Source: Candidatus Nomurabacteria bacterium (GTDB lineage: Bacteria > Patescibacteriota > Minisyncoccia > Phycocordibacterales > UBA918). Taken from it: DNA of 64,000 nt. The stretch is taken from assembly GCA_023898525.1 (NCBI GenBank), contig CP060227.1, positions 493,634 to 557,633 on the forward strand. Direction: 5' to 3'. Positions 27,258 to 45,923 of this stretch are shown here, in pieces; position 1 is the stretch's first letter, and every line of letters starts with the position of its first letter. Both the position numbers and the translations under genes were made by a program. Below the pieces are notes generated by a model. The model saw only the letters and a program-made list of their open reading frames with translations, had not been told where the DNA came from and searched no databases.

Positions 27258-28655
27258 TTATTTGCCTAAACTTATAGTTTTGTTTGCCAGCAGAAGTCTG
27301 GTTTTCAGACAGGATAATAGCTCTCGTTTTTCATGAGCTTGCCCTTCCCTCAGAATGTACTTAGCGTAGTTTCGTACCTCAATATCTTTCACTTTCACCT
27401 TCGTCTCTTTCTCACCAAGTAATCCAGCTTGAAACTTTTTATGTCGTTCAATCTCATCTTTAATTTTTTTGCGCATTCCGATTTCATCAAACGCTATCTT
27501 GTCCATCAGTCCAGCTAGTTGCTCGATCAAATCTTCTTCGTTTATGTACCCACATGTACAGTTTTTATCGTTATGCTTCGTGCACCCGTAATACACGTAC
27601 CGGTGTACGTTTCCGTTCTTTTGAGTTTTGTATTTCTCATCAGCAGTGATACCTGAGCCACATAGACCGCAACTCAGTAACTTGGTGAAGGCAAACTCTT
27701 TTGTCTGCCATCCGTCTGACCTGCTGTTTTGTACTTTGATCTTTTCCTGCACCTGATCGAAGAGCGCTTTGCTAATGATTGGTTCATGTATGCCCTTATA
27801 CCACTCACCACTGCCTTTCGGATATTCGAACGTTCCATAGTAGAAATGGTTTCGGAGAATCATATATAGATTGCCGAGGTATATCGGTTTGCCTGTTCTT
27901 GTCGTGAACTTCACTTCGTCACGAAGCCAGAAGTAAAGTTGTCTACCTGTTAGGTTCTCGTACGCGATCTTCTCAAACATCTTCTTTACAATCGGTGCTC
28001 TCTTGGGGTCTATGTCCTTGTGACACTTTTTGTCAGTGCGATTACTATTCAAATATCCCGTCGGTGCAATACATGGATAAAGACCCATCTCACACCGTGC
28101 TCGCATACCTCGCTTTACGTTCTGAACTTTGTTGTCATTTTCTAGTTTGGCTTGTGATCCAAGAATCATCAGTAGAAACTTTTCATTTGGGTTGTTGGTG
28201 AACTTCTGGCCGTACGTTCGTATCTCGTGCAGTGTTCCCGAGTCCATGAGATCCACTATTCGTCCGAGATCTCCTGCATTCCTTGAAATTCGATCAGGTG
28301 CCCATGTCAGTATGGCGTTGAACTTACCGCTATGGATATCTGCTACAAGCTCGTTGAACACTGGTCTCGTGCCAGCTTCTTTAGCGGAATGTGACTCCTT
28401 CCTGATTTCAGCCACCTCCAGATTATCTCGCTCCGCCATCTGCAGCATTTCTTTGATCTGAGAGTCGATAGAAAGCACTTGCATCTCCTCAGACTCCGTC
28501 GACTTACGTGCGTACAAGCAGTATTTTAGTGTTACTGGCGCTACTATTTTGCTCGACACGAACCCCTCTGGTGCTTCTGTTCTGCTCATTACCAACACTA
28601 ATGACGCAACCCCTCTAGGAAGTCTAGAGGGGTTGGTAGTTGGTAAGTTGATCAC
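27258..28655 (-). CDS. Large serine recombinase, paralog 1
   Basis: The catalytic-domain YARKSTESEE (nucleophile Ser), LSIDSQ, ILTWAPDRISRNAGDLG, and a C-terminal recombinase domain with a Cys-rich zinc ribbon. Confidence 0.85.
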   Translation of the reverse strand: MINLPTTNPSRLPRGVASLVLVMSRTEAPEGFVSSKIVAPVTLKYCLYARKSTESEEMQVLSIDSQIKEMLQMAERDNLEVAEIRKESHSAKEAGTRPVFNELVADIHSGKFNAILTWAPDRISRNAGDLGRIVDLMDSGTLHEIRTYGQKFTNNPNEKFLLMILGSQAKLENDNKVQNVKRGMRARCEMGLYPCIAPTGYLNSNRTDKKCHKDIDPKRAPIVKKMFEKIAYENLTGRQLYFWLRDEVKFTTRTGKPIYLGNLYMILRNHFYYGTFEYPKGSGEWYKGIHEPIISKALFDQVQEKIKVQNSRSDGWQTKEFAFTKLLSCGLCGSGITADEKYKTQKNGNVHRYVYYGCTKHNDKNCTCGYINEEDLIEQLAGLMDKIAFDEIGMRKKIKDEIERHKKFQAGLLGEKETKVKVKDIEVRNYAKYILREGQAHEKRELLSCLKTRLLLANKTISLGK

Positions 28656-29200
28656 TGAAAATCCTTCGCGACACCAGTCACATTCATACGGTAGTTCAAC
28701 ATTTCCTTGCTAATACCGTATTTTCTAGTCGCCTGAACATCCGTGAGTTTTTGTTTCTTTATATAAATACAAGCTTCTCGTGGAAGAAGTAGACAACCAG
28801 ACAACCACCCCGCTTCATCTTCTTCATCCTGATTGTACGAAGCATACAGCAACCCATCGATAACATAATTCTTTCCGCCCTCATGCCCCAAAATCAAATG
28901 AGACAGTTCATGAGCCAAGTTACTAGCCTGTCTTGCTTTCGAATGTGTCGGATTTAAAACGATCACCGCAAGATCATTCGACCTTATCGTCATAGCAGAC
29001 CAGCTGTCGGGATCATCTTCTGTCAAAGTCTTGCAACATTCTTTACTCACACCATTAATGTCTTCTGGCAACCAAATCCTAATGCCATGCAGCTCTGCCA
29101 GTACCCACATGTCTAGCGGGGAATAGGCCTGATGTCCTTGTCTCTTCCTTATGTTAAGCGCGGTTTTCTCCGCCCATGCTTTGAAACCACGTTTATACAT
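28652..29200 (-). CDS. ImmA/IrrE-family HExxH metallopeptidase
   Basis: HELSHLILGHEG. It lies directly downstream of an XRE HTH gene, matching the ImmR/ImmA or CapH/CapP pairing. Confidence 0.75.
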   Translation of the reverse strand: MYKRGFKAWAEKTALNIRKRQGHQAYSPLDMWVLAELHGIRIWLPEDINGVSKECCKTLTEDDPDSWSAMTIRSNDLAVIVLNPTHSKARQASNLAHELSHLILGHEGGKNYVIDGLLYASYNQDEEDEAGWLSGCLLLPREACIYIKKQKLTDVQATRKYGISKEMLNYRMNVTGVAKDFQ

Positions 29201-29209
29201 ACCGGGACC

Positions 29210-29584
29210 TTATTCACTCCCAATAGGCTGGAGTTTCGCCATCTCTTTTTGGGCAGCAATAATTACTTCTGCTAGAGCTTTAGCAGTAGTAGGTTTAACT
29301 TCTTTGTTTTTTCTAAAGTGGATTGCTGCCATTGGCGCTTCGTGCTTGGTCGCCTCACGAGTTTCGCCCTGCAGAAAAGCTCCTGCGTCAATCTCAAGCC
29401 ACGCACAGACTTTTTGGAAAGTATCTATGTCGGCCATATATCCTCGTTCGATACGTGACAAGGTCGCCGGACTAATCCCAATGTCCTTGGCCACAACACG
29501 AACACCCCGCCCGGCTCTCTTGGCGAAAACTTTTTCGCCAAGTTTTTCAAACCTGCGGGAGGTGTCTTTATTTGATTGTTTCAT
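29210..29584 (-). CDS. XRE-family HTH repressor-like protein
   Basis: AKDIGISPATLSRIERG. Confidence 0.75.
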   Translation of the reverse strand: MKQSNKDTSRRFEKLGEKVFAKRAGRGVRVVAKDIGISPATLSRIERGYMADIDTFQKVCAWLEIDAGAFLQGETREATKHEAPMAAIHFRKNKEVKPTTAKALAEVIIAAQKEMAKLQPIGSE

Positions 29585-29600
29585 ACATAATACAAAAATG

Positions 29601-29630
29601 TTTGACAGATAAGACGCTCATGCCTTATAC
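29601..29630 (+). promoter_or_regulatory. Sigma-70-like promoter TTGACA-17-TTATACT reading rightwards into the Ubl operon
   Basis: -35 TTGACA at 29601-29606 and -10 TTATAC(T) at 29624-29630. It lies in the divergent intergenic region next to the XRE gene start. Confidence 0.5.
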
Positions 29631-29720
29631 TGTGTCTTACATGTGAAACAGTACCGCGATTCCCTCTTGGGGTCAAGCGCACTGGCCACATGATTTAACC
29701 AATAAGCTTCTATTTATTAT

Positions 29721-29981
29721 ATGGAAACTTCAACAAAAGAGCACGCACAGCGTGGTCATAAAACAAAGCTCGTAACCGTCACCGTGGATGGTGTAGAGCA
29801 CAAAATTAAACGAGGAAAGTACACGGGTAAGGAGCTCAAGCAAGCATTTGGTATCGAGCCGAACCGTGAGCTGCTTGAAATCAAAGGTAAGAAGTTGGTA
29901 CCGATTGGTGATTGCGACGAGACCAATGTCTCAGGACATGAGGTGTTCGTGACACACGTATGTACCGGAACATCATCGTAA
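29721..29981 (+). CDS. Ubiquitin-like (beta-grasp, ThiS/MoaD-like) protein, 86 aa
   Basis: VTVTVDGVEHKIKRGKYTGKELKQAFGIEPNRELLEIKGKKLVPIGDCDETNVSGHEVFV resembles ThiS/MoaD. There is no C-terminal GG. It is the first gene of the Ubl-E2-JAB-E1 operon. Confidence 0.5.
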   Translation: METSTKEHAQRGHKTKLVTVTVDGVEHKIKRGKYTGKELKQAFGIEPNRELLEIKGKKLVPIGDCDETNVSGHEVFVTHVCTGTSS

Positions 29982-30319
29982 GCCGTATGGAGTTTGATCA
30001 AGAACAACTAAACGAGTTGGGTCACCAGTGTGAGCGAGTCGAAGTACTCGCTGACGGTCCTCATCATTTTATACTGCTCACCAATTTGGAATTGATTTCC
30101 GATGGGAAGGTAGTGGTGATGGATGCGTTACTGTGCCCATTCGCTCACACTGGTTATGCAACTCGTCTGTTCTTGGCAGAACCTTTGAGTCACAAACAGA
30201 AGAACTGGACAATCCATCAGCTTCTAGGGAGAAATTGGCATACATGGTCATGGAAAGGTGTCGAGGCCAACCAACGTTTGTCACAGATATTAGCGAGCCA
30301 TTTAACCGCTCTCATATGA
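29960..30319 (+). CDS. E2-like (UBC-fold) candidate, 119 aa
   Basis: The candidate catalytic Cys is in MDALLCPFAHTGY, and GPHHF sits in the position of an HPN-like motif. Its stop overlaps the JAB start (ATGA). The assignment is by operon position and size. Confidence 0.35.
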   Translation: MYRNIIVSRMEFDQEQLNELGHQCERVEVLADGPHHFILLTNLELISDGKVVVMDALLCPFAHTGYATRLFLAEPLSHKQKNWTIHQLLGRNWHTWSWKGVEANQRLSQILASHLTALI

Positions 30320-30843
30320 AGGTCGTCTACAAAATAAATGCTGATCTAATAGCAACAATTAAGGAAGACCTATCGCGGTTTCACCCGTATGCGTTTGAGC
30401 GTATAGGGTTCATCTCTAATTCTTGTGCGTACACGAGTGATGACACGCTCACCATTTATGCGCTAGGTTATACGCCGATACCCGATGATTGCTACATCCC
30501 TGACTACACGGTAGGAGTGAGGTTCGGTAAAGATGCAATTCAAAAGGCACTTGAACTCGCCTTCAATGAAGGAGGTCAGAACGTATCAGTCTTTCATGTC
30601 CACGAACACATGGGGTCAAATGTGCCTTGGTTCAGCCAGACTGATCTATTGAGTGCTGACGAATTTGTCCCAGACATATTCAACACCGCACCCGCAATGC
30701 CTCATGGCATTCTGGTACTCAACGAACGACATGCTTCAGGAAAAGTTTGGACTACCAAAGCAGAATCGCAGCCAATAGAAACCGTTATTAGTGTTGGTTC
30801 GCCAACAAAATACTCTAATTACCATGAACGAACGTTATTCTAG
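30316..30843 (+). CDS. JAB/MPN (JAMM) family metallopeptidase, deubiquitinase-like
   Basis: HVHEHMGSNVPWFSQTD approximates the JAMM HxHx7-8SxxD motif. Confidence 0.55.
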   Translation: MKVVYKINADLIATIKEDLSRFHPYAFERIGFISNSCAYTSDDTLTIYALGYTPIPDDCYIPDYTVGVRFGKDAIQKALELAFNEGGQNVSVFHVHEHMGSNVPWFSQTDLLSADEFVPDIFNTAPAMPHGILVLNERHASGKVWTTKAESQPIETVISVGSPTKYSNYHERTLF

Positions 30844-31651
30844 ACAAAGCTTCTTAGGTGAGGACAGCGACTCACTTTTCGCCCGCTTGAACGTCGCTAT
30901 TGTTGGTCTTGGCGGCGGCGGTTCACATGTGGCACAACAACTAGTTCATTTGGGTGTGAAAAATTTCATCCTAGTTGATCACGATTCGATTGAGGAAAGC
31001 AATCTGAATCGGTTAGTTGGCGGTACAGCGGAAGATGTACGAGCAGAGAGAAATAAGGTGGATATTCTTGCTCGAGTGATACGTAGCGTCAATGAAGATG
31101 CCGATGTCTCAGTTCAATCGCAAAAATGGCAAAACGCTGCTAACCTATTGCGCGAGTGTGACTGCATATTCGGTTGCGTTGATTCGCTAGACGAGAGGCG
31201 ACAGCTCGAAAATTTTGCTCGTCGCTTTATGATCCCTTACATTGACATCGGTATTGATGTAAGTAATACAGATGGACGTACTTACATAACTGGTCAGGTT
31301 GCAAAATCGATCCCATCGAAACCTTGTCTTTGGTGCCTCAACATATTGAACGAACAAAATGTAAACAAAGAAGTGCAAGAGTACGGTGCTGCTGGGGGAC
31401 AACCTCAAGTGGTGTGGGCGAACGGTATTGTTGCGTCGGCTGCAGTGGGAATGTTTGTCGAACTGTTTACACCTTGGAACCCTGATCAAAACCAAGTGCT
31501 TTGCCTAGACTACGATGGTAATAAACACACATTGGAAGTGAGTAACCGCATGCTCTTTCCAAGTGTGCAAGAGGGTATTTGCGAGCACTACCCAAAGGAA
31601 TTAGTGGGTGACCCTTTCTTTAAAATTAATAAGATTGTGAACCATGGATGA
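30824..31651 (+). CDS. ThiF/MoeB/HesA-family E1-like activating enzyme
   Basis: RYSRQ motif, Rossmann VAIVGLGGGGSH, catalytic-cysteine region CDCIFGCVD, CxxC zinc site KPCLWC. Confidence 0.8.
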   Translation: MNERYSRQSFLGEDSDSLFARLNVAIVGLGGGGSHVAQQLVHLGVKNFILVDHDSIEESNLNRLVGGTAEDVRAERNKVDILARVIRSVNEDADVSVQSQKWQNAANLLRECDCIFGCVDSLDERRQLENFARRFMIPYIDIGIDVSNTDGRTYITGQVAKSIPSKPCLWCLNILNEQNVNKEVQEYGAAGGQPQVVWANGIVASAAVGMFVELFTPWNPDQNQVLCLDYDGNKHTLEVSNRMLFPSVQEGICEHYPKELVGDPFFKINKIVNHG

Positions 31652-31904
31652 TTTAGCATTTAAGTACCCGAGAAGAATTCTGCAAGCACTACTGGTTGGT
31701 GCGATGGTGATTGCTATTGGCTGGGGTGTTATTACTTGGAACTCGCAAAATGCGATCAATCTCTGGACTAAGGAAGTAACGTTTATTACTCAACCGATCT
31801 TTAACTACTTCACAAACAAGATGGAACGTAGGGTGGAACGAGCTATGGAGCCGGTGACGGAGCAGCTCGAAGCGTCTGGTAACTCCGCTTCGCAAGACCA
31901 GTAA
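31644..31904 (+). CDS. Small two-TM membrane protein (MDDLAFKYP...) ending the Ubl operon; paralog of 48499..48729
   Basis: It overlaps the E1 stop (ATGGATGA). It is ~45% identical over 70 aa to the small ORF at 48499..48729. Confidence 0.5.
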   Translation: MDDLAFKYPRRILQALLVGAMVIAIGWGVITWNSQNAINLWTKEVTFITQPIFNYFTNKMERRVERAMEPVTEQLEASGNSASQDQ

Positions 31905-31924
31905 ACTAAGCTAAAGTGCTGACT

Positions 31925-32140
31925 AATAGCCCTATTTGAGCTATTATGTCCGTTACAACCAAATACGGTAGACCTAACCCATTGGCAACCCCAATGGTAT
32001 GGTCGAAAATCCCAAAGCACATAAAGAACCCGTCATCAGGGCTCGTGCTTTGGGTTATAGGGGGAAACTCCTATAGGAGCTTCGGCTCTCCTGGTGGCGG
32101 GCTTTTTGTACCTCACCAATTTATAAACCCAAAGCACAAT
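31925..32140 (+). ncRNA. Conserved ~200-nt noncoding element, copy A (candidate structured RNA / regulatory leader)
   Basis: It shares TATTTGAGCTATTATGTYCGTTACAA and ACCTAACCC with 60600-60790. It has co-varying stems CCCAAAGCAC/GTGCTTTGGG (copy A) against CCGTCCAAAGT/ACTTTGGACGG (copy B), and ends ...GGGCTTTTTG. Confidence 0.45.
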
Positions 32141-32144
32141 TTAT

Positions 32145-32492
32145 ATGGAATCATTTAAACTATCGTCTTCAGAAAACGAAGACAAGAACGAGGAAGGAAG
32201 TTCATCTGTAGCGAAGGTACTTCTCAGCCTCATTATTATGGGAGCAGGAGGTTGGTTCTTCTTCGGCGGAGGACTCGAACAACAAGCAGCTAATGACCTC
32301 GACAAAATCGAAGACCAGGTCGCTGCTGATTCAGTCCGACAATACAACCTCGCTAAGCAAGGTGGTGACGCAATTGAAATCTGCGTACAAGCAGGAATGG
32401 TCACAGCTGCGTATCTCCAAGCCGAAGACCAACCAAACTACCTAAAGTGGAAAGACATCGAGAAAGCAGACTGTGCTAGAGCAGGGATGTAA
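32145..32492 (+). CDS. Small membrane-anchored protein with acidic N-terminus
   Basis: One TM (VAKVLLSLIIMGAGGWFFFGGG); no motif. Confidence 0.35.
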   Translation: MESFKLSSSENEDKNEEGSSSVAKVLLSLIIMGAGGWFFFGGGLEQQAANDLDKIEDQVAADSVRQYNLAKQGGDAIEICVQAGMVTAAYLQAEDQPNYLKWKDIEKADCARAGM

Positions 32493-32497
32493 AAAAT

Positions 32498-32527
32498 AAA
32501 CCACTGACGGGCAGTGGTTTATTTTTA
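32498..32527. terminator. Bidirectional terminator AAACCACTG-ACGG-GCAGTGGTTT flanked by A6/T5
   Basis: It lies between convergent genes. Confidence 0.65.
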
Positions 32528-32965
32528 TCTTTCCCAATCATCAGGATGACCCCCATTTTCAATGAACTCTCGATATCGTTCAAGACGAGCAATAGTTGGA
32601 ATGGAAGCAATAGTGATTGGTGGTGTCATCTCTTCCAAGCGGTACGGCGAAGTAGTCTTCTTCGGATGATAGTCATCGTGACAGTTACTCAACTGAAACT
32701 TAATCGCTGGAAAGTAGCCTTCACTGATACTACGCATAAGCTGGTTGTGCGCCAAGTCATTTACATAACTCTTGCCGTCACTGATTGCCTTATCCGCCTG
32801 TACCGCAAAATCTTCATCCTCCTTCACCCAGCGATAGTACGTCTCACGGCTCAAGCCAGCCTTCTTGCAAGCAAAGCTCACGTTACCCGATTCACACAGA
32901 GACTGGAGTACTTTCTCTTGCTGTTTCAGAATCCGCTCCTGTATCCGCTTCTCGCGCTTGTCCAT
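32525..32965 (-). CDS. Phage terminase small subunit-like HTH protein (degenerate copy)
   Basis: FACKKAGLSRETYYRWVKEDEDF resembles the TerS HTH, and the gene at 62675..63070 is homologous in layout. Confidence 0.45.
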   Translation of the reverse strand: MDKREKRIQERILKQQEKVLQSLCESGNVSFACKKAGLSRETYYRWVKEDEDFAVQADKAISDGKSYVNDLAHNQLMRSISEGYFPAIKFQLSNCHDDYHPKKTTSPYRLEEMTPPITIASIPTIARLERYREFIENGGHPDDWER

Positions 32966-33707
32966 TACCAGTAAGTTTTAGCCAGCGAACAACGATAGTC
33001 TCGCAGTATTCTGGGTCCATCTCGACCGTAATACACTTACGCTTCGTATGCTCGCAGGCAATCAAGGTTGAGCCACTGCCACCAAACGGGTCATAGACGG
33101 TGTCACCAACCTTCGTGCTGTTAAGAATCAGTCTGCGGAGTAATCCGACTGGTTTCATCGTCGGGTGGAGCTTGCTTTGCGACGGTTTCGGGTAGAACGC
33201 AACTGACTTGTCTTTGCCACGCTTGAAGTCGTGCGTACCTTTCCAACCGTAGAGAATGAGTTCGTGTTGCGGTAGGTAGTCGAGTCGTCCCACGATTGCT
33301 CGATCCTTCACCCAGACGATAAGTTGGGCAATTTTCATGCCTGCCTCAAGACAGGCCTGACGGAGAGCGAAGATCATCTTGTCGGAGTTGAAGATGTAGA
33401 TGCTGTTTTTCTTGGACAGCTTTGAGAGTGCTGGAGAAAGCCAGCTCTTAGTGAATTCAACGTACTGTTGGTCGGACATAAATCCGTCATTGGAGATGTC
33501 TTTATCCTTGGCAATCTTGCCAATGCCACGCTTGCTTTCAGCGTAATCGACACCGTACGGCGGGTCAGTTAGAAGGAGGTCGATGTTCCCGTAGACAGAG
33601 AGGTCTACCTTGGAGGAATCACCGCAGATGAGAACGTGCTCACCAAGACAGATGATGTCCCCTGTCTTAATTGATCTTGGTAGCTTTGGTACCGGTGAAT
33701 TTTTCAT
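32892..33707 (-). CDS. DNA methyltransferase (N6-adenine/N4-cytosine, DPPY family)
   Basis: DIICLGEHVLICGDS and LLLTDPPYGVDYA. Confidence 0.8.
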   Translation of the reverse strand: MKNSPVPKLPRSIKTGDIICLGEHVLICGDSSKVDLSVYGNIDLLLTDPPYGVDYAESKRGIGKIAKDKDISNDGFMSDQQYVEFTKSWLSPALSKLSKKNSIYIFNSDKMIFALRQACLEAGMKIAQLIVWVKDRAIVGRLDYLPQHELILYGWKGTHDFKRGKDKSVAFYPKPSQSKLHPTMKPVGLLRRLILNSTKVGDTVYDPFGGSGSTLIACEHTKRKCITVEMDPEYCETIVVRWLKLTGNGQAREADTGADSETARESTPVSV

Positions 33708-34941
33708 AGCGGTTGATGATTACCTGAACAAAGACGGGGTTGAGCTCGACCAGAAACGCATTGCGCTTCATTTGCTCACACGCAAGGAGGGTTGAACCTG
33801 AGCCACCACAGAGATCGAGCACGTTATCGCCGATCTTGGTGCAACGGTTGAGTGGTCGCTCATGCAAAGACAGAGGTTTCTGCGTTGGGTGATCGTAGGA
33901 TTGTCCTGCGTCACGCTTAGCGAGCCAGATATCAATCATGTCAGTGACATCATCGATGGTAGCGTTACCGATGCCGATATCTTTATTCAGAATCTCGGCG
34001 AGTTTGGTGTGCTTTTTAGAGAGGTATGGCTTACCAACCGTGCCGTAAAGGGCTGGTTCGTAGATTTTCGAGAACGCTACTTGTGGCGTTGGGTTGATAC
34101 CGTTCTTGATCCAGAGGGCGGTGCGTTTGTATGCGATACCTACCTCAACGAAGAGGTTTTGAAGCATGCCGACATACGCTGAATCGCAGTACCAGATGTG
34201 GTGCGAGTCCTTAGCTGAAACGTCCACCGCATTTTGCATCAGTGTGCGTACGAAGGTGCGGTACTCAGCGTCTGTCTTCTTATCATCAACGACACCACCG
34301 TAGCTTTTCTTGCCCCCGATGCCTTTGTCGTACGAGAGTCCGATGTTGTATGGAATATCTACATACGACATGTCGATTGTGGTCTCACCAACAAGCTTCT
34401 TCACTGTCTCGGGGTTCGTGCTGTCACCACAGATAAGATAGTGGGTACCGAGCTTGAAGAAGTCACCAGACTTAATGTCAGTCGTCTCGGCTTTCTTGAG
34501 CTCTTTCTCAGGATTAAACTCATCGTCATCAATCTCCAGCACATCGTCCCAGATGTCAGAGAGGTCTCCGTCATCGAAGCCGATGTCCAAGAGGAACTCA
34601 GTGTCAAAATCCTTCAACAGTTCGTAGTCCCACGAGCCTGTGTTCTTATTGGAGCGTAGGAGATACTCTTCAAATTCCTTCTTGGTAAGGGTGCGGTTTG
34701 GTACTCGCACGTCAATTTCTTCTTGCCCGCGACCGAGTAGTTGCATCACCTTCAATCTGGCGTGTCCTGCCACGATAGTGTTATCAGTGTTGATCGCAGG
34801 AATCTCCGCTAGAGAGAACTTGGTAATGCTCGCTTCAAGGTCTTTACGCTGTTTGTCCGACAAGGTGCGAGGGTTCTTGTCGTACGGCACGAGATCATCG
34901 ACTTTGCGTGTCTCTGTGTGCCAAGTAATTTTATTACTCAT
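33667..34941 (-). CDS. ParB-like nuclease domain fused to a DNA methyltransferase
   Basis: N-terminal ParB/Srx fold (DLVPYDKNPRTLSD), then HYLICGDS and DIPYNIG methyltransferase motifs. Confidence 0.8.
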   Translation of the reverse strand: MSNKITWHTETRKVDDLVPYDKNPRTLSDKQRKDLEASITKFSLAEIPAINTDNTIVAGHARLKVMQLLGRGQEEIDVRVPNRTLTKKEFEEYLLRSNKNTGSWDYELLKDFDTEFLLDIGFDDGDLSDIWDDVLEIDDDEFNPEKELKKAETTDIKSGDFFKLGTHYLICGDSTNPETVKKLVGETTIDMSYVDIPYNIGLSYDKGIGGKKSYGGVVDDKKTDAEYRTFVRTLMQNAVDVSAKDSHHIWYCDSAYVGMLQNLFVEVGIAYKRTALWIKNGINPTPQVAFSKIYEPALYGTVGKPYLSKKHTKLAEILNKDIGIGNATIDDVTDMIDIWLAKRDAGQSYDHPTQKPLSLHERPLNRCTKIGDNVLDLCGGSGSTLLACEQMKRNAFLVELNPVFVQVIINRYEKFTGTKATKIN

Positions 34942-35009
34942 AGTAGATTGCGAGGGTGTTTTATATTAATGGTCCCTCTACCATCTACTGCTGAGATTTC
35001 AGCGACTAG

Positions 35010-35726
35010 TTAGTCATTGCGATATATTTCGTCTTCAAAGTCCATTGCACCAGAATGTCGCAGTTCACCACTGCCTCGTAACTCCTTTTCAGGAAGAAGC
35101 GTGAACTTGGGCTGGTAGCCAGTCTCGTTGGTATATCGTTCAAATGGTTCTTCGTTGATACCAAACGCCTGACGTAGACCCATTGATAAGTCACTCTTTC
35201 GTTTTTCTACTGCGTTTGGTGAAGTAACACCGCAAACATTCATCAAATGCTGTTTCGTGGCAGGTATGTTTGGCTCACGTCCAAGCAAGGCAGACATCAT
35301 CCGAAGCAAAGCCCAACGGCGATCTGGTTTTTTCCATTCAGTGTTAGCCTGAGCGAAGCCGAGATCCTCATGTGAATATTTTCCGATGATTGTGTCTCCG
35401 TATTTCACCTCTACATCTTCGTTGTTTTTGAAGCTGATACTGAGTTCCTGCCACTTAGCGTTTTCTGGTAATTTAACCTTCGCCTCAGTGAACAAGACCT
35501 CTTTCTTGGTTTTAGCCTTCATTGAACTTGCTGACACGGGAGCTGATTCCGTTGATATCTCAGTCTCTGTCTCAGCGCCGTATACTTCCTGATAAATAAC
35601 TTGAAGCTCAGCAATGAAGCGGAGTGTTGGTTTTATTGGTTCTATTGCTTGTCGCACCTGATCCTCAAGAGCCTTGCGTTGCAGGAGAGCCTGACGGAGC
35701 GAAGTAAGTGTGTTTTTTGTGTACAT
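35010..35726 (-). CDS. Hypothetical protein (238 aa)
   Basis: No motif recognised. Confidence 0.35.
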   Translation of the reverse strand: MYTKNTLTSLRQALLQRKALEDQVRQAIEPIKPTLRFIAELQVIYQEVYGAETETEISTESAPVSASSMKAKTKKEVLFTEAKVKLPENAKWQELSISFKNNEDVEVKYGDTIIGKYSHEDLGFAQANTEWKKPDRRWALLRMMSALLGREPNIPATKQHLMNVCGVTSPNAVEKRKSDLSMGLRQAFGINEEPFERYTNETGYQPKFTLLPEKELRGSGELRHSGAMDFEDEIYRND

Positions 35727-35883
35727 ATACTCTAATTATACAACCGACTTTTACAGCGATAATATCCTTGTTTTAAGCCATATCCGTATTTTCAAACCGT
35801 TCTGAAAATGCTCTTAAAATAGCTGTTTGGGTGTCAGATTTGTAACATGTGGCTTTACTGAGCCATCGGCATATAATCACTTT

Positions 35884-37233
35884 ATGAATTATCAAATCGC
35901 CGCTCCGTCTGAGAAGCCCATCGTGCTCAAATACTGTATCTACGCTCGCAAATCCATGGAGCAAGAGGAACGCCAAGCGTTGTCTATCGACTCTCAGCTC
36001 AAGGAGATGAAGGAAATCGTTGACCGAGAGAAGCTCGATGTCGTAGCAATAAAAACCGAGTCGCACTCAGCCAAGCACTCAGGACAACGTGAGGTCTTCA
36101 TGGAAATGGTCACAGAACTCAAAGCTGGCAAGTACAACGCCATCCTTACCTGGAACCCAGACCGCCTCAGTCGTAATGCTGGTGACCTCGGCTTGCTGGT
36201 AGACATGATGGACAATGGCAAGTTGTTGGAGATTCGTACCTTCAATCAAGTCTTCTCCAACTCACCAAACGAAAAGTTCCTCCTCATGATTCTCTGCTCA
36301 CAAGCCAAGCTGGAGAACGATCAGAAAGGTATCAACGTGAAGAGGGGTCTGCGAGCTGCAGCTGCTAAAGGTCTCTGGCCCTGTGCCTATCCGCCACTCG
36401 GATACAGCAAGTCACGCATGAAGGGTGAAGAAGGAGTTGTGCATTTAAATAAGAAAGACGCTCCATTCATCAAGGAAGCGTTTCGGAAAGTAGCGTACGA
36501 GGGCTATTCAACCTACGCCATTGAACGCTGGCTCAAGGAAACTGGCATGACCACTTCCTCTGGCAAACCCCTGAATTACAGCCTCGTTCAAGCCATGCTC
36601 CACAACTCTTTCTACTACGGCTATTTTGAATTTCCGAAGAAGAGTGGACAGATATACAAAGGTGCACATAAGCCCGCCATTACCAAGAAGCTTTTCAATG
36701 ATGCACAGGAAGCAATTGCTCAGAAGGAGCGGAAGAAACGCTACCGTAAATCTAAGACTGCGCCGTTTGGTTTTCTTCACTTGATACGCTGTGGTACTTG
36801 TAGCTCGGGTATCACTGCCGAAGAGAAGTACAAAACTCTTAAAAGCACTGGTGAAGAAGCTGTCTACCGTTACTACGTCTGTTGCCGAAATCGTAACCGT
36901 GACTGTCGTGAGAAATATATTAGCGAGACTCAATTACTGGAAGAACTGTATAAAATTCTTGATGTCGTCGAGCTTGATGAAATTGGTATGCGAGAAATGC
37001 TCGAGTCTGAGATTGAGAAGTGGTACAAGGTGCGGGCATTTGTTCAAGGCAAACCCGTTGAAGAACGCACTGATGAGCAGAAGGAATACGACCTCCGTAA
37101 ATACGCCAAGATTATCTTTGAAGAGGGTCGTAACGATGAACAGCGTGAGATCTTGAAGTATGTAAAAGGCAGGCTGATTTTGAGGAACAAGCGAATATAT
37201 CTCGATACCGTTCCAGAAGAGGCAAAATCCTAA
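35884..37233 (+). CDS. Large serine recombinase, paralog 2
   Basis: YARKSMEQEE, LSIDSQ, ILTWNPDRLSRNAGDLG; ~60-70% identical to the other three copies. Confidence 0.85.
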   Translation: MNYQIAAPSEKPIVLKYCIYARKSMEQEERQALSIDSQLKEMKEIVDREKLDVVAIKTESHSAKHSGQREVFMEMVTELKAGKYNAILTWNPDRLSRNAGDLGLLVDMMDNGKLLEIRTFNQVFSNSPNEKFLLMILCSQAKLENDQKGINVKRGLRAAAAKGLWPCAYPPLGYSKSRMKGEEGVVHLNKKDAPFIKEAFRKVAYEGYSTYAIERWLKETGMTTSSGKPLNYSLVQAMLHNSFYYGYFEFPKKSGQIYKGAHKPAITKKLFNDAQEAIAQKERKKRYRKSKTAPFGFLHLIRCGTCSSGITAEEKYKTLKSTGEEAVYRYYVCCRNRNRDCREKYISETQLLEELYKILDVVELDEIGMREMLESEIEKWYKVRAFVQGKPVEERTDEQKEYDLRKYAKIIFEEGRNDEQREILKYVKGRLILRNKRIYLDTVPEEAKS

Positions 37234-37341
37234 TAAATAAGTCCCTACTGATAGGGGTCAGAAAATAGCGACATCAGTCGCTCGGAAACCCTTGTGGGGC
37301 TTGCTGGGTGAAAATCCGCAACGCCAAGGGGGCACACAGGC

Positions 37342-37384
37342 AAAACAAACAAACGACTCTTTTAAAAGAGTCGTTTGTTTGTTT
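37342..37384. terminator. Perfect palindromic terminator AAACAAACAAACGACTCTTTT-AA-AAGAGTCGTTTGTTTGTTT
   Basis: It lies 110 nt after the recombinase stop. Confidence 0.6.
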
Positions 37385-37477
37385 TAGAAACTGAACTGCT
37401 TCAGTTTCGTGCCTGTGTGCCGGGCGGAGACATGTTTTCTTCTCCTTCCCAGAGAAGAAAACAGTCGAGCCGGGGTC

Positions 37478-37660
37478 GAGAGTACTTAGCAAAATAAGAG
37501 CGTCAGCGAATTATTATGCTTAGTAACTCGTGACCACAGAAAAAATAACAATGGGTGCACAGAATCTGTAAGATTCGCGAACACTTAGCAAAATCTGCAC
37601 GGAGTGCAAGATTATACTTAGTGATTCGTGTCCCCCAGAGAAAGCAAACGGTTTTGCCTT
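37478..37660. repeat. Two ~85-nt tandem units (ACTTAGCAAAAT...ATTATRCTTAGTRAYTCGTG) in a 530-nt ORF-poor intergenic region
   Basis: The ACTTAGCAAA motif also occurs at 60566-60577, upstream of recombinase paralog 4. Confidence 0.5.
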
Positions 37661-37770
37661 CGTCATGAATCGAAGGGATATTGGATGTGTGACAACACGA
37701 CAATATCCCAGGCTCGAAGAGGATTCCTGCTGGGGACACCGAAAGAATCAGGAATCCCATTCACCCCCAA

Positions 37771-38244
37771 CTACGAACCAGTATCTTCAACTACATCTGC
37801 CCTAGTCCCTTGATTACTTGGTGTCTCTTGGGTTTGAATATCCGAGTCTGAGACCGACGTGTCGTTAGTTACTTCACCAGTAGCTTCACCCTCTTTATCA
37901 AACAATGGCAGTTCATTATGACCATACTTATTAATCATATCTAAGCGTACCGTGTCGTATATCTCTTGCCGTTGGTTAAAGTTATTTATTGCCGCTTCGA
38001 CAAATTCACTTTTATAATTAATCGGCGCACCGCCAGAACCATCAGTATCTTCTACAGACACATTACTGTACTGCATATAGGTGCTAACACTCCACCAGAC
38101 CCCAGAAATCACGACTAATGTAGAAATCACAAGTCCAATCAACCACTCTCTTTCCGGGTGCATGATTTGATTGTCGGAGAATTCTTTTTTATGTGGATGG
38201 ATGACATGGTCTACCATCTTTAATATCTCTTTTTTCTCGATCAT
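37771..38244 (-). CDS. Hypothetical membrane protein, last gene of the pilMNO-like operon
   Basis: One TM; position analogous to pilP. Confidence 0.3.
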   Translation of the reverse strand: MIEKKEILKMVDHVIHPHKKEFSDNQIMHPEREWLIGLVISTLVVISGVWWSVSTYMQYSNVSVEDTDGSGGAPINYKSEFVEAAINNFNQRQEIYDTVRLDMINKYGHNELPLFDKEGEATGEVTNDTSVSDSDIQTQETPSNQGTRADVVEDTGS

Positions 38245-38765
38245 GGTGTCTGCATTGTTATTAATATAGTCGCCTCACCTTCCCAAGTATCTCCAGCTAT
38301 TGATTTTAATGACAAAGATTCGAGATACGAATGGTAATGTATATTTTCCAGTATTCTTACAAAGTCTTTCACCGCATCTTTTTCACCCACGTAAACAAAA
38401 ACAACCTTGAAAAACTTCAAACCTTTTTCCTTATCAGCAATAGTATCATCAATGGATTCTGTCCTTAAGGTTAGACCTAGCGTCGGAGCCAGTGCTTCCA
38501 TTTCATCTAGAAAGGTAATTGAATCATTGGCATCTCGGAGAAACTTTGTTGACAACTCAGTCCGCTGTGCTTCTGTCTCCTGCATTGTTCGTGTAATATT
38601 TAAATGAGTATAGTCTTTCTTATTATTACTTTTTAAAAGAGCCACGTTATTATCTAAACGAACTCCTTGAGCATTAATCTCAAAAAACAAAAAGCCACAA
38701 ATAGCTGACGTTAGAACAAACGATATCAATGAAATAATAAATGTGCTTTTGGTGTTATTACTCAT
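38241..38765 (-). CDS. pilO: PilO-like type IV pilus assembly protein
   Basis: A single N-terminal TM plus a periplasmic domain; operon position after pilN. Confidence 0.5.
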   Translation of the reverse strand: MSNNTKSTFIISLISFVLTSAICGFLFFEINAQGVRLDNNVALLKSNNKKDYTHLNITRTMQETEAQRTELSTKFLRDANDSITFLDEMEALAPTLGLTLRTESIDDTIADKEKGLKFFKVVFVYVGEKDAVKDFVRILENIHYHSYLESLSLKSIAGDTWEGEATILITMQTP

Positions 38766-38768
38766 AGG

Positions 38769-39311
38769 CTATTTATTATCAGTATTAAGATTAACTGATA
38801 AGGTAAAACCAATATCCTTATCTTTCGCTAAATCAGAAATCGGTAACTTTACATCCTTCACTTCAGGCAGAGCTGAAAGGTTGTCACGAAACTCGACCAA
38901 AGCTTCTCTGGTATCAGCTATCCCTTTTACCTCTACAGACTCTACAGCCATGCCCGCACGAAGAAACTCATAATCGTTGATAATAATCATTGAGCCTTGT
39001 AGGTCATCAATGGCTGCCATCAAAGAAGAAAATTGTTCTAACTGCTGTAGCTCGACCAACAAGGCCGATTGTCTCTTGGCCATTGTTAAAGCCGAAGCCG
39101 AAAGATCATAATCAGCCACCTTGGCGGCCACCTCCTTAGCGGATGAGGCATAAGTACCAACCTGAGAAGTAACCAAAACATAGACCGGTAGTAGTGAAAT
39201 CGCTACCAAAAGACCCGCCACACTCACCGCAAATAACCAAACCGAAATAACCCTAACCCAGTATTCCTTGGTTATTTGTTTTTTAGCGGTTGGTGGTATT
39301 AGATTAATCAT
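38769..39311 (-). CDS. pilN: PilN-like type IV pilus assembly protein
   Basis: N-terminal MINLIPP motif, a TM, a coiled coil. Confidence 0.6.
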   Translation of the reverse strand: MINLIPPTAKKQITKEYWVRVISVWLFAVSVAGLLVAISLLPVYVLVTSQVGTYASSAKEVAAKVADYDLSASALTMAKRQSALLVELQQLEQFSSLMAAIDDLQGSMIIINDYEFLRAGMAVESVEVKGIADTREALVEFRDNLSALPEVKDVKLPISDLAKDKDIGFTLSVNLNTDNK

Positions 39312-39316
39312 AAATA

Positions 39317-40411
39317 CTAAACAGAGCTCTTTATAGCCAAACCAATAGCAGTGGCATAACCATATGAATAACGTTTTTCAATTGGCGGTATCATCACTGA
39401 AGTATCAAAAGCATTTTGCCAAACATTACCTCGCACACACTTAGCCCCCAACATCTCAGTTAGGTACTCCGGTAGCCCACGCAAATTACCACTCCCTCCA
39501 CAAATAATTACCTTTTTAATTCGTCGCTCATCTCTATTACTACCACGCTGGTGCCAATACTGCATACGAAGCGCTATCTCGTCTTTTATGACAGAAATGG
39601 TAGAAATTAATGCATCATAGACTTTTGTATCGTCGGTTTCAGTAATCAAGCCAATGGTATTTTTAATTTTCGTCAATTCATCCTCCGGTACGTCTCCCAG
39701 GGTTTTCCTAAGCATTTGTGACAATTGCTTGCCACCCAAATCAATCGTGGATGTATACAGTAGAGACTGCCCACCCACAATTCCGACTCCGGTTCTGGTC
39801 TTACCAAAGTCCAAAAGCATAACAACATCATCGTTATCATTAGAAACCACCGCCCGCGCCATAGCTTGCGCCTCAACCTCAAAAGAAAGCGGGGTTAGCC
39901 CTGCCTCCCTACAAACATCATAATATTTTAAAATAGTCTCACGTTGATAGGCGGCCACTACAACCTTGACCATGTTTTGATTGGTGTACGATGGGATTAT
40001 TTCATAATCAAAAATAGCGTCTCTAGCAGGTATCGGTACATTCTCTTCCAATCTAAACTCTAAAACATTACGAATTTCTTTCGGTGGAACATTACGCTTG
40101 ATCTCTGTTTCAAAAATATACGCTCTTTCCTCTGGTAGTGATACCCTAATGTAGTCAGCCTTAGTGGTAGCTTTGAATTCTTTCAGCGCATTAACCATAC
40201 CTTTTGGATCTAGGATCTCGCCTCTTTCCAAAACATCTTTCGGGATTTTAATGTCACCCCACTCCTTTAGGACCCGCAACCGGTCGGACCGCAGTGACGG
40301 ATGAAAAGACACATACTTCATAGAAGTGTCGGAAATATCTACCCCAACACTAGGCATCACCATGAAGCTCGGCGGTGGGACTATTTTCGTCAGTGAACTC
40401 AAGACATTCAT
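39317..40411 (-). CDS. pilM: PilM type IV pilus assembly ATPase-like (actin fold)
   Basis: ~360 aa, with actin/FtsA-like phosphate motifs (VGVDISDTSMKY, DLGGKQL). Confidence 0.7.
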   Translation of the reverse strand: MNVLSSLTKIVPPPSFMVMPSVGVDISDTSMKYVSFHPSLRSDRLRVLKEWGDIKIPKDVLERGEILDPKGMVNALKEFKATTKADYIRVSLPEERAYIFETEIKRNVPPKEIRNVLEFRLEENVPIPARDAIFDYEIIPSYTNQNMVKVVVAAYQRETILKYYDVCREAGLTPLSFEVEAQAMARAVVSNDNDDVVMLLDFGKTRTGVGIVGGQSLLYTSTIDLGGKQLSQMLRKTLGDVPEDELTKIKNTIGLITETDDTKVYDALISTISVIKDEIALRMQYWHQRGSNRDERRIKKVIICGGSGNLRGLPEYLTEMLGAKCVRGNVWQNAFDTSVMIPPIEKRYSYGYATAIGLAIKSSV

Positions 40412-40456
40412 ATTATCTATTATACGCTGTCTCTACCACCAAAAACGTCACCTTCT

Positions 40457-41065
40457 TCACATAGTGAGTAAAAAATAAATAATGATGGAAACAAAAGTGA
40501 TAATGGTAATTGGTTTGATATTTTTGCGAGCCATCCGAACCGCATCTTCACCGTAATGATATGTCAAATAACCTGCAATACTGTAGCGAACAGAACGTCC
40601 CACAAACACTCCTGATAAAAATAAGAGTAGGTTACCTTTAATAGCTCCAGCCGCCAAAGCAGTCAAAGTAAAAGGAACAGGCGTAATAGCTCCCACCAAC
40701 CCAAGAATAAAGGTACTGTTCTTAAATTCCTCACTTATTACATAAAATTCAGCTACTGATTTGTCGGACAAAAAGCCAAGTATGATATCAATAAAGAAAT
40801 TGGCTGTTATGTAGGCGACTAGGCCACCGATAATAGAGGCGGCTAGAGTTACTACAACAGCTGTCACCACCTTAGAGCGATGGAGTAATATATATGCGAT
40901 CAGAAAAGGATCGGTTATTAAGGGAATCAAAAGCATTGACTCCACAAAAGATATGATAGCCAAAACCCACAGACCATAGCGTGAACTAAGTAGTCCTTTT
41001 GATTTTTGTGTCACCTCTCTTAGGTCCTTATCTTTAGTAGTTTTAATTTCTACGTTCTCTGGCAT
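40457..41065 (-). CDS. DedA/YqaA-family membrane protein
   Basis: The FVESMLLIPLITDPFL motif in TM1-2. Confidence 0.55.
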   Translation of the reverse strand: MPENVEIKTTKDKDLREVTQKSKGLLSSRYGLWVLAIISFVESMLLIPLITDPFLIAYILLHRSKVVTAVVVTLAASIIGGLVAYITANFFIDIILGFLSDKSVAEFYVISEEFKNSTFILGLVGAITPVPFTLTALAAGAIKGNLLLFLSGVFVGRSVRYSIAGYLTYHYGEDAVRMARKNIKPITIITFVSIIIYFLLTM

Positions 41066-41070
41066 GAAAG

Positions 41071-41787: not shown

Positions 41788-41821
41788 GTTTTTTAGCATA
41801 ACACAAATTTTAAAAAGTTAG

Positions 41822-41858
41822 AAAAGTCCCGCGCGAGCTTCGCTCGCGCGGGACTTTT
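41822..41858. terminator. GC-rich palindromic terminator AAAAGTCCCGCGCGAGC-TTCG-GCTCGCGCGGGACTTTT
   Basis: It lies immediately 3' of the minus-strand glucose-6-phosphate isomerase gene (its stop is at 41878). Confidence 0.65.
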
Positions 41859-41877
41859 CAACTAGCCAACTGACACT

Positions 41878-45916: not shown

Positions 45917-45923
45917 GTTTAGA

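What the first reader, a model, noticed from the sequence alone, without database searches (positions are those of the whole stretch)
31644..31904. Paralogous 2-TM mini-proteins ending two unrelated defence operons
MDDLAFKYPRRILQALLVGAMVIAIGWGVITWN... (31644..31904, last gene of the Ubl operon) and MDDLSFRWPQKVLKWLVIGFFSVSILYGLVTWN... (48499..48729, last gene of the second type I R-M operon) are clearly homologous, at ~45% identity. A shared small membrane protein at the 3' end of two different immune operons suggests a common accessory role, perhaps a membrane-anchored sensor or effector, or a mobile-element boundary gene. I have not seen this described.
Basis: seen in the sequence. Interest (0 to 1): 0.55.

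Follow-up and report, generated by a model that had tools for sequence, protein, structure and literature searches.

The report
Small membrane gene flanking defence-cargo hotspot
The two look-alike mini-proteins are real members of an undescribed single-pass membrane protein family of Patescibacteria. They end two unrelated defence operons because their gene sits at the edge of a slot, next to a serine recombinase gene in a phage-derived module, where defence operons get inserted, not because they belong to either defence system.

Summary
ORF A (31644..31904, +, 86 aa) and ORF B (48499..48729, -, 76 aa) are 46% identical over 69 aa (E 2e-27). They are under strong purifying selection (dN/dS 0.03-0.20) and match no described family. 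The "2-TM" description is wrong: there is one transmembrane helix followed by an amphipathic helix.

Across about 20 related loci the gene occupies a fixed place in a conserved module: DNA methyltransferase(s), a TerS-like HTH protein, sometimes TerL, then a large serine recombinase. The mini gene lies between TerS/TerL and the recombinase, on the opposite strand, and is often followed by a LOOT RNA. Variable cargo is inserted between the recombinase promoter region and the mini start codon. Cargo seen:
- a Ubl/E1 operon
- type I R-M with various embedded genes
- AbiJ-AAA
- an RNase H-like gene
- nothing at all

Cargo and mini are separable in both directions. Close relatives keep the recombinase and mini at 87% identity with unrelated cargo. 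Conversely, the same R-M operon (hsdM 83%, hsdR 77%) carries a mini only 30% identical.

The pattern therefore reflects hotspot architecture, not a shared defence accessory. The protein's own role is untested; a superinfection-exclusion-like envelope role is a guess.

The parts
31644..31904 (+). Mini-protein A, 86 aa: one TM helix (~12-30) plus an amphipathic helix. Last cistron after the E1 gene.
48499..48729 (-). Mini-protein B, 76 aa, paralogue of A. Lies 37 nt after the YgjP-like gene. Its stop overlaps the stop of recombinase R3 by 4 nt.
   Evidence: (exact match to NCBI MAG Candidatus Nomurabacteria, H6779_02485)
27258..28589 (-). Large serine recombinase R1 (Resolvase + Recombinase + Zn_ribbon_recom). 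Likely ATG at 28589; the ORF call runs to 28655.
28599..28632 (.). Conserved motif AATGACGCAAC plus a GC-rich 9-bp inverted repeat just upstream of R1. It marks the recombinase-side edge of the cargo slot and is present once in 22 related loci.
28652..29584 (-). Cargo: M78 peptidase (28652..29200, CapP/RmrA-like) and HTH regulator (29210..29584).
29721..31651 (+). Cargo: four-gene Ubl-type operon (86 aa, 119 aa, ~175 aa, ThiF-family E1 at 30791..31651).
31924..31958 (+). 35-nt box shared with 60602..60636 (88% identity). Promoter-like (CTGACT-17-TATTAT), directly upstream of LOOT.
31971..32089 (+). LOOT RNA copy 1 (RF03000, 80.2 bits against a gathering score of 46.4).
32525..34941 (-). Module backbone: TerS-like HTH (32525..32965) and two N6/N4 DNA methyltransferases (32892..33707, 33667..34941).
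35858..37233 (+). R2: recombinase gene alone, a 1.38-kb insertion relative to L001.
47144..48502 (+). Large serine recombinase R3, convergent with mini B. The same junction is found in L017, where the recombinase is 96% identical.
48767..59106 (-). Cargo block: hsdS-half, hsdM, a 445-aa gene, ThsB-TIR, ThsA-Macro, a 145-aa gene, hsdS, hsdR, YgjP-like.
59154..60488 (-). Large serine recombinase R4.
60641..60756 (+). LOOT RNA copy 2 (71.2 bits), preceded by the 35-nt box at 60602..60636.
61255..63765 (-). Second module backbone: TerL (61255..62694), TerS-like HTH (62675..63070), N6/N4 methyltransferase (63067..63765).

Best explanation
The mini gene is a resident 'anchor' of a cargo hotspot inside a phage-derived integrative module of Patescibacteria. 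The module reads methyltransferase(s) -> TerS-like HTH -> (TerL) -> large serine recombinase. Between TerS/TerL and the recombinase is a slot.

Shown:
- In the emptiest versions the slot holds nothing, or only the mini gene on the opposite strand, 60-80 nt from each neighbour.
- In fuller versions a LOOT RNA gene with its own promoter-like box follows the mini gene.
- Whole defence operons lie between the recombinase promoter region and the mini start codon, almost always in the mini's orientation, so the mini becomes their last cistron.
- Cargo and mini are exchanged independently of each other.

Inferred:
- Two unrelated operons end in paralogous mini genes because the window holds two such hotspots. 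The second is rearranged.
- The protein is a single-pass membrane protein, weakly predicted N-in/C-out, with a conserved exposed amphipathic helix around an invariant proline. It acts on its own for the island.

Guess (about 0.2): an envelope-level, superinfection-exclusion-like protection expressed together with whatever cargo is upstream.
For: Conserved order in mini-bearing loci:
- Recombinase(-), slot, mini(+), then TerS-like HTH(-) and methyltransferase(-), in the A-type and C-type lineages.
- Most compact case, L033: recombinase 3-1241, mini 1321-1548, HTH 1608-2042, then MT271 and MT424.

The base module exists without the mini in IMG/VR contigs:
- L036 and L038: methyltransferase, TerS, TerL, recombinase, with gaps of only 208 and 91 nt.
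- L039: ParB-methyltransferase, TerS, recombinase, tRNA.

Same flanks, different cargo:
- Window against L012: homology stops at 28627 and resumes at 31643.
- Window against L020: R1 87% and mini 87% identical. Cargo is the Ubl operon in one and a 71-aa plus RNase H-like 257-aa pair in the other. Breakpoints fall at 28646 and 31644.

Same cargo, different mini:
- Window site 2 against L022: hsdM 83%, hsdR 77%, YgjP 65%, mini 30%.

Other cargo in the slot:
- AbiJ-AAA on the opposite strand
- DUF2188 plus a 275-aa gene
- type I R-M with embedded AAA_13, KAP NTPase, DUF4145/AAA_15 or TIR
- none

Further support:
- In the four pairs compared, the mini is as divergent as or more divergent than the adjacent recombinase: R1/L012 95% against mini 63%, R1/L005 74% against 64%, R3/L017 96% against 84%.
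- The phage origin of the backbone is supported by TerL matching 449 phage records and by TerS PHROG hits.
- It is a real protein gene: dN/dS 0.03-0.20, and synonymous sites vary within the conserved N-terminal motif.
Against: - In L027/L028 a distant member sits inside a type I R-M operon (hsdS, mini, Fic, hsdR) with no recombinase or TerS within 5.4-7 kb.
- Type I R-M is the upstream neighbour in most deep lineages, and intergenic gaps are tiny (-8 to +37 nt). Functional coupling therefore cannot be excluded.
- In window site 2 the R-M/mini B block lies on the 3' side of R4, not in the slot, and ends against R3. The simple scheme needs an extra rearrangement there.
- No repeated att-like site was found at the mini side of the cargo, so the insertion mechanism is unknown.
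- Many loci come from related lineages, so the number of independent observations is modest.
- No expression or mobility data exist.
- The superinfection-exclusion idea rests only on size, topology and position.
Confidence: 0.7

Rival explanations
1. Shared defence accessory. The mini-protein is a membrane effector, anchor or sensor that different defence systems, especially type I R-M, plug into.
For: - It is always on the cargo strand and tightly packed or overlapping with the last cargo gene.
- Type I R-M lies upstream in the B-type, C-type and P0040 lineages.
- In L027/28 it sits inside an R-M operon with no recombinase nearby.
Against: - It is present with an empty slot.
- It occurs with Ubl, AbiJ-AAA and RNase H-like cargo.
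- In L009 the cargo is on the opposite strand.
- The same R-M (77-83% identity) carries a mini only 30% identical, while the same mini (87%) carries unrelated cargo.
- There is no PADLOC hit.
Confidence: 0.12
2. Integron-like capture. The serine recombinase inserts cargo at a dedicated site, and cargo (with or without the mini) moves as a circular cassette. The junction at the mini start codon or stop codon is a recombination site.
For: - Breakpoints recur within 0-11 nt of the mini ATG (window vs L009, L012, L016, L020 and L017); against L018/L019 homology extends 55 nt upstream.
- A conserved quasi-palindromic motif sits at the recombinase-side edge, and its right arm is lost in the empty-slot loci L012 and L033 and in L001 and L009, which carry cargo other than the Ubl operon.
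- A solo recombinase gene (R2) behaves as a 1.38-kb insertion ending at its stop codon.
- In site 2 the R-M/mini B block is inverted and lies on the other side of R4 relative to L022, as expected for excision and re-insertion.
Against: - No second copy of the motif, or of any repeat, lies at the mini side of the cargo.
- The motif can equally be the recombinase promoter or operator (TTGCGT -35 on the minus strand).
- Homologous recombination between conserved flanks explains cargo swaps just as well.
Confidence: 0.1
3. Type I toxin-antitoxin or addiction pair: a small hydrophobic toxin (the mini) controlled by the neighbouring LOOT RNA, stabilising the island.
For: A small membrane protein lies next to an sRNA gene on mobile DNA. 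LOOT follows the mini within 59-87 nt in most A-type loci (286 nt in L001).
Against: - LOOT is on the same strand and not antisense.
- The LOOT/translation-start duplex energy is no better than shuffled controls, apart from one marginal case (z from -2.4 to +1.3 over 7 loci).
- The mini occurs without LOOT (B-type, L011, L023, L027, L033, L034).
- LOOT occurs without the mini (site 2, L038, L039).
- The mini is co-transcribed with constitutive R-M operons.
Confidence: 0.04
4. Holin or lysis remnant, or a recombination directionality factor of the recombinase.
For: It is about 80 aa with one TM and lies in a terminase/integrase neighbourhood. It is divergent from the recombinase, with a shared 70-80-nt control region in the empty-slot loci.
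Against: - No endolysin or structural genes lie nearby.
- Directionality factors are soluble DNA- or integrase-binding proteins, whereas this is an integral membrane protein.
- The module exists without it.
Confidence: 0.04

Closest known systems
Defence hotspots of P2-like phages and P4-like satellites, and integrase-associated defence islands (recalled from memory: Rousset et al. 2022; Hochhauser et al. 2023)
   Same: A mobile, integrase-bearing, phage-related element with conserved flanking genes. Between them, unrelated defence systems replace one another, and cargo is swapped between close relatives.
   Different: - The recombinase is a large serine recombinase rather than a tyrosine integrase.
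- The host is Patescibacteria.
- The backbone is methyltransferase/TerS/(TerL).
- One flank is a tiny membrane-protein gene that becomes the last cistron of the cargo.
- An orphan structured RNA (LOOT) shares the slot.
Integrase-proximal superinfection-exclusion and moron genes of temperate phages (T4 Imm and Sp, lactococcal Sie2009, HK97 gp15; recalled from memory)
   Same: A small membrane protein encoded next to the integrase of a phage-derived element, positioned to be expressed in the resident state alongside defence genes.
   Different: There is no sequence similarity: PHROGs and phage tblastn searches are negative. No function has been shown. The element lacks visible structural genes.
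Phage-inducible chromosomal islands and other satellites (int plus terS)
   Same: A compact integrative element with an integrase and a TerS-like gene, few or no structural genes, and defence cargo.
   Different: - Serine recombinase.
- Sometimes its own TerL.
- ParB-/N6-N4 methyltransferases.
- No identified replication or repressor module.
- Induction and packaging are untested.
Integrons
   Same: A recombinase gene lies directly beside a site where cargo accumulates in one orientation and is read as an operon.
   Different: - Serine rather than tyrosine recombinase.
- Cargo are whole multi-gene systems with their own regulators.
- No attC-like repeats were found.
Transmembrane effectors of CBASS, Thoeris, Pycsar and retrons
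   Same: A small membrane protein at the end of a defence operon.
   Different: Those effectors co-vary with their own sensor and carry signal-binding domains. This protein is exchanged independently of the cargo and occurs alone.

Membership tests
Hotspot-flanking gene of an integrative element | Conserved flanks with unrelated cargo between them in related loci | tested here: met
   Window against L012, L020, L009 and L016: flanks are 72-95% nt identical, cargo is absent or unrelated, and breakpoints fall at 28627-28646 and 31642-31644.
Hotspot-flanking gene of an integrative element | Cargo enriched in defence systems | tested here: met
   Ubl/E1 with CapP/CapH-like regulators, type I R-M with ThsA/ThsB, TIR, AAA_13 or KAP, and AbiJ-AAA. 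No formal enrichment statistic was computed.
Hotspot-flanking gene of an integrative element | The element is mobile (excision and integration, defined att sites) | tested here: inconclusive
   The left flank of the recombinase differs between loci, a tRNA or tmRNA lies adjacent in L039 and L011, and R2 is a solo insertion. The att sites are not defined.
Defence-system accessory or effector | Obligate co-occurrence and co-variation with one defence system | tested here: not met
   It occurs with an empty slot and with at least five cargo types. The mini is 30% identical where the R-M is 77-83% identical.
Type I toxin-antitoxin | An antisense or base-pairing sRNA obligately linked to a small hydrophobic toxin gene | tested here: not met
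   LOOT is co-directional, its duplex energies are not consistently above shuffled controls (z -2.4 to +1.3), and each gene occurs without the other.
Superinfection-exclusion membrane proteins | Homology to a known Sie/Imm/Sp family | tested here: not met
   There are no PHROGs, Pfam or phage-genome hits.
Superinfection-exclusion membrane proteins | Blocks phage DNA entry when expressed | not testable with these tools
   This needs an experiment.
Holin | Adjacent endolysin or lysis cassette | tested here: not met
   No muralytic gene lies next to any copy.
   There is one segment above threshold. The second peaks at 0.3-0.9 on a 19-residue Kyte-Doolittle scale.
LOOT RNA (Rfam RF03000), the neighbouring gene | Covariance-model score above the gathering threshold over the full model | tested here: met
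   80.2 and 71.2 bits against 46.4, covering model positions 1-121. Eleven further loci also score above threshold: ten distinct LOOT copies, since L001 and L002 carry the same one.
Large serine recombinase (R1-R4) | Resolvase, Recombinase and Zn_ribbon_recom domains | tested here: met
   The domains were found in R1 and R3. R2 and R4 are assigned by 44-57% identity to them.
Integron-like platform | Recombination sites repeated at cassette boundaries | tested here: not met
   The window has a single copy of the recombinase-proximal motif and no repeat at the mini side.

The most novel reading that the evidence does not exclude
The methyltransferase/TerS/(TerL)/serine-recombinase module is a dedicated defence-gene capture platform of Patescibacteria. 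In this reading the recombinase inserts whole defence operons at a fixed site so that they read into a universal terminal membrane protein (the mini) and a structured RNA (LOOT). Both would then be functional parts of the platform: a common output or maintenance device, or carriers of the recombination site. That would amount to a serine-recombinase analogue of the integron for immune systems.
Probability: 0.1. Interest if true: 0.85.

Novelty: new variant of a known kind. Interest (0 to 1): 0.5.

Why it matters
Patescibacteria (CPR) have tiny genomes, and how they acquire and exchange immunity is poorly known. This locus type gives a recognisable scaffold: a serine recombinase, a TerS-like HTH protein and methyltransferases, often with this mini gene and a LOOT RNA. 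Defence systems are swapped within it. The scaffold could serve as a guilt-by-location bait for new CPR defence genes. It also gives the orphan LOOT RNA its first clear genomic context. Finally, it shows that a small gene shared at the ends of unrelated immune operons can be a positional marker rather than a shared component.

Tried and rejected
- The metagenome scan failed with the diverse alignments A2 and A3 because they have no conserved 7-10-residue stretch. It was rerun with A1 and found only 5 close loci.
- Searches for literature on LOOT found no functional information, and the supplement of the discovery paper is not held.
- A search for att-like repeats around the cargo found only the LOOT-promoter box and recombinase paralogy. 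The recombinase-proximal motif is single-copy in the window.
- The type I toxin/LOOT antitoxin idea was rejected.
- A profile search against PDB gave only chance TM matches. No fold search was run, because a two-helix 86-aa model at pLDDT 73 would give meaningless matches.
- L012, L013, L014 and L015 turned out to be the same DNA with different gene calls, so they say nothing about breakpoints.
- An Rfam scan at E-value threshold of the 37.2-37.8 kb spacer gave only sub-threshold noise.
- Simple inversion models for site 2 do not reproduce the observed orientation of R4. Only excision and re-insertion of the cargo+mini block, or independent insertions of R3 and R4, fit. The question is left open.

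Full report
**1. Observation**

ORF A (31644..31904, +, 86 aa) and ORF B (48499..48729, -, 76 aa) are present as described. BLASTP gives 46% identity and 77% positives over residues 1-69 without gaps, E 2e-27. The window holds no third copy.

A overlaps the stop of the ThiF-family E1 gene by 8 nt. B follows the YgjP-like gene, which itself follows hsdR, after 37 nt. ORF B is identical to a hypothetical protein of a Candidatus Nomurabacteria MAG on a 1.09-Mb contig.

Nei-Gojobori estimates between orthologues give dN/dS 0.03-0.20 with dS of 1 or more. Synonymous positions vary inside the most conserved N-terminal motif. This is therefore a protein under selection, not a conserved DNA site.

Only one segment (~12-30) reaches transmembrane hydrophobicity. 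Residues 34-56 are amphipathic, and AlphaFold gives two helices, 8-30 and 34-85, at pLDDT 73. '2-TM' should read 'single-pass plus amphipathic helix'. Flanking charges weakly favour N-in/C-out.

**2. The family**

- Word-seeded searches found 15 clusters with A and 3 with B.
- A profile of 18 sequences searched against 1.84 billion representatives found 32 hits at E<1e-3. All but two are 59-102 aa.
- The shared pattern is M-[DE]-D-x-x-F-x-x-P-K-K, a TM helix, W-G-x-x-T-[GW]-[DN], a helix with an invariant proline, then R-x-E-R.
- There is no match in Pfam, PADLOC, PHROGs or NCBIfam, only chance-level matches (E >= 0.59) in PDB, and none in GenBank phages (A queried), PLSDB plasmids (B queried) or IMG/VR.
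- Only 2 of 185,579 GTDB species representatives matched the pattern-limited scan. Both are Patescibacteria.

**3. Context in the window**

The window holds four paralogous large serine recombinases (44-57% identical): R1 27258..28589(-), R2 35884..37233(+), R3 47144..48502(+) and R4 59154..60488(-).

Rfam finds two LOOT RNAs. LOOT1 (31971..32089) begins 67 nt after the stop of A. LOOT2 (60641..60756) lies beside the 5' end of R4. Each is preceded by a shared 35-nt promoter-like box.

- To the right of LOOT1: a TerS-like HTH gene and two N6/N4 methyltransferases, on the minus strand.
- To the right of LOOT2: a 154-aa ORF (60789..61253, +, no family hit), then TerL, a TerS-like HTH and a methyltransferase, on the minus strand. 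This TerL matches 449 phage records.

**4. Context elsewhere**

In the A-type lineage (57-91% identical to A) the order is recombinase(-), slot, mini(+), usually LOOT(+), a few variable genes, then TerS-like HTH(-) and methyltransferases(-).

| Loci | Slot content |
|---|---|
| Window, L001-8, L029 (L011: same cargo, contig starts in a tmRNA, no recombinase seen) | M78/HTH regulators plus the Ubl/E1 operon |
| L001 | additionally DUF2188 and a 275-aa gene |
| L009 | 280-aa gene and AbiJ-AAA, on the opposite strand |
| L020 | 71-aa gene and an RNase H-like 257-aa gene |
| L012-16, L031-33 | nothing |

L033 is the minimal form, with the recombinase, mini, HTH and two methyltransferases separated by 60-80 nt.

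In the C-type lineage (25-30% identical) the same order holds, with a type I R-M (with or without YgjP) in the slot. These operons carry different embedded genes (AAA_13, KAP NTPase, DUF4145/AAA_15, DUF2130). A TerS-like 133-aa gene plus a ParB-methyltransferase lie downstream, and in L022 a LOOT as well.

Querying IMG/VR with TerL and R1 recovered the bare module:
- L036 and L038 have methyltransferase, TerS, TerL and recombinase, with only 208 or 91 nt between TerL and the recombinase.
- L039 has ParB-methyltransferase, TerS, recombinase and then a tRNA.
- LOOT sits on the other side of the methyltransferase in L038 and L039.
- No mini is present (HMM search).

The mini, LOOT and cargo are therefore occupants of a slot between TerS/TerL and the recombinase, on the strand opposite to the module. 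No phage structural genes were seen. The module therefore resembles a satellite or a remnant rather than a complete prophage.

**5. Separability of cargo and mini**

- Same flanks, different cargo. Window against L020: R1 87% and mini 87% identical, cargo unrelated. Homology ends at 28646 and resumes exactly at the mini ATG, 31644. Against L012, the whole of 28628..31642 is absent.
- Same cargo, different mini. Window site 2 against L022: hsdM 83%, hsdR 77%, YgjP 65%, but mini 30%. Nucleotide homology ends inside the 3' end of YgjP.
- B-type. In L017 the mini-R3 junction is conserved (82.6% nt; recombinase 96% and mini 84% identical), while the upstream gene differs from 11 nt before the ATG.

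These three comparisons argue that the mini is a fixed flank and not a component of the Ubl or R-M machinery. They also show that a breakpoint recurs immediately upstream of its start codon.

**6. Site 2 is rearranged**

Relative to L022, R4 and LOOT2 keep their mutual orientation. The block from hsdS-half to YgjP and mini B is inverted and lies on the 3' side of R4. It ends against the 3' end of R3, with the stop codons overlapping by 4 nt.

Simple inversions do not reproduce this arrangement. Two scenarios do: excision and re-insertion of the cargo+mini block, or insertion of recombinase-terminated elements on both sides.

R2 shows that a recombinase gene alone can be an insertion. Relative to L001, 35858..37233 is inserted. 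The insertion starts 26 nt before the R2 ATG and ends at its stop codon. All of this is inference; the att sites are not defined.

**7. The recombinase-side edge**

A motif, AATGACGCAAC followed by a GC-rich inverted repeat and then GTTGRTAA, lies just upstream of the recombinase start in 22 loci. In the window it lies only upstream of R1, at 28599..28632. The repeat covaries between lineages. It is missing in the empty-slot loci L012 and L033, and its right arm is also lost in L001 and L009. It may be the recombinase promoter or operator (TTGCGT -35 on the minus strand), or half of a recombination site. I could not decide between these.

**8. Function**

The positional explanation is well supported. 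The biochemical role of the protein is not.

- A type I toxin/LOOT pair is unsupported (each gene occurs without the other).
- A holin or a recombination directionality factor is unlikely: no lysis genes are nearby, and the protein is an integral membrane protein.
- A shared defence effector is disfavoured by section 5. However, L027/28, where the mini lies inside an R-M operon with no recombinase nearby, and the tight coupling to upstream genes keep it alive at about 0.1.
- My best guess, at about 0.2, is an envelope-level protective function of its own, such as superinfection exclusion, expressed with the cargo. This is by analogy with small membrane proteins encoded next to integrases of temperate phages. 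That analogy is recalled from memory and was not tested.

**9. Verdict**

The 'common accessory' reading is not supported. The 'mobile-element' reading is right in spirit, because the gene marks the distal flank of a defence-cargo hotspot in a serine-recombinase/TerS/methyltransferase module of Patescibacteria.

The protein family and this scaffold appear undescribed in the libraries and literature I could search. The general phenomenon, defence hotspots between conserved genes of integrative phage-like elements, is known. I rate it a new variant of a known kind, of moderate interest.

Noticed in passing
window 31971..32089 and 60641..60756; also L001, L005, L009, L012, L016, L020, L022, L030, L038, L039: LOOT RNA (RF03000) is an orphan structured RNA; I found no functional information on it in the literature I could search. 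It recurs in or beside the methyltransferase/TerS/(TerL)/serine-recombinase module, in both mini-bearing and mini-free loci, including two IMG/VR contigs. Each window copy has a conserved 35-nt promoter-like box upstream. This may be the first clear genomic context for LOOT.
   Followed up: partly
window 35858..37233: R2, a large serine recombinase gene on its own, is a 1.38-kb insertion relative to L001. It begins 26 nt before its ATG and ends at its stop codon. It looks like a one-gene mobile unit.
   Followed up: partly
window 27258..60488: Four paralogous large serine recombinases (44-57% identical) lie within 33 kb, interleaved with two type I R-M operons, a Ubl/E1 operon, orphan methyltransferases and terminase genes. 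This is a dense mosaic of accreted elements.
   Followed up: partly
window 28599..28632; 22 loci: The motif AATGACGCAAC plus a covarying GC-rich inverted repeat lies upstream of R1-type and C-type recombinase genes whose proteins are only ~54% identical. The right arm of the repeat is lost in the empty-slot loci (L012, L033) and in L001 and L009. It could be a promoter or operator, or an att half-site.
   Followed up: partly
window 53845..57017: A ThsA-Macro gene, a ThsB-TIR gene and two unknown genes (145 and 445 aa) are embedded between hsdM and hsdS of the type I R-M operon. Relatives carry AAA_13, KAP NTPase, DUF4145/AAA_15, TIR or Fic at the same place. This is a second, intra-operon cargo slot.
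   Followed up: no
window 28652..31651: The Ubl/E1 operon (86, 119, ~175 and 286 aa) is preceded by divergent CapP-like M78 and HTH regulators. The ~175-aa protein contains an HVHEH...SQTD stretch reminiscent of a JAMM motif. The gene order recalls Bil-type Ubl-E2-DUB-E1 systems. Only the E1 has a database hit.
   Followed up: no
L011 1..174: In one relative, the Ubl operon plus mini lies directly beside the 3' part of a tmRNA gene, with no recombinase in between. This suggests the island also occupies a classical tmRNA integration site.
   Followed up: no
window 9427..9547 and 9858..9978; 11855..11909 and 44734..44788: There is a 121-bp direct repeat (86% identity). There is also a 55-bp similarity (78%) that starts at the edge of tRNA-Leu (11775..11859) at one copy and lies about 190 nt from tRNA-Arg (44974..45046) at the other. 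The latter may be island att remnants.
   Followed up: no
window 19626..20180: A T5orf172/RAMA-domain gene sits between tRNA-Arg (19460..19536) and the first type I R-M operon. A T5orf172 gene also ends the R-M operon in L027.
   Followed up: no
L022, L023, L034: The TerS-like 133-aa protein and the ParB-methyltransferase are 71-100% identical between contigs from different samples, although the R-M cargo and the mini genes differ. In the window against L001, the HTH/methyltransferase block is 92% nt identical while its neighbours are 71-75%. The backbone seems to be exchanged or conserved separately from the slot contents.
   Followed up: no
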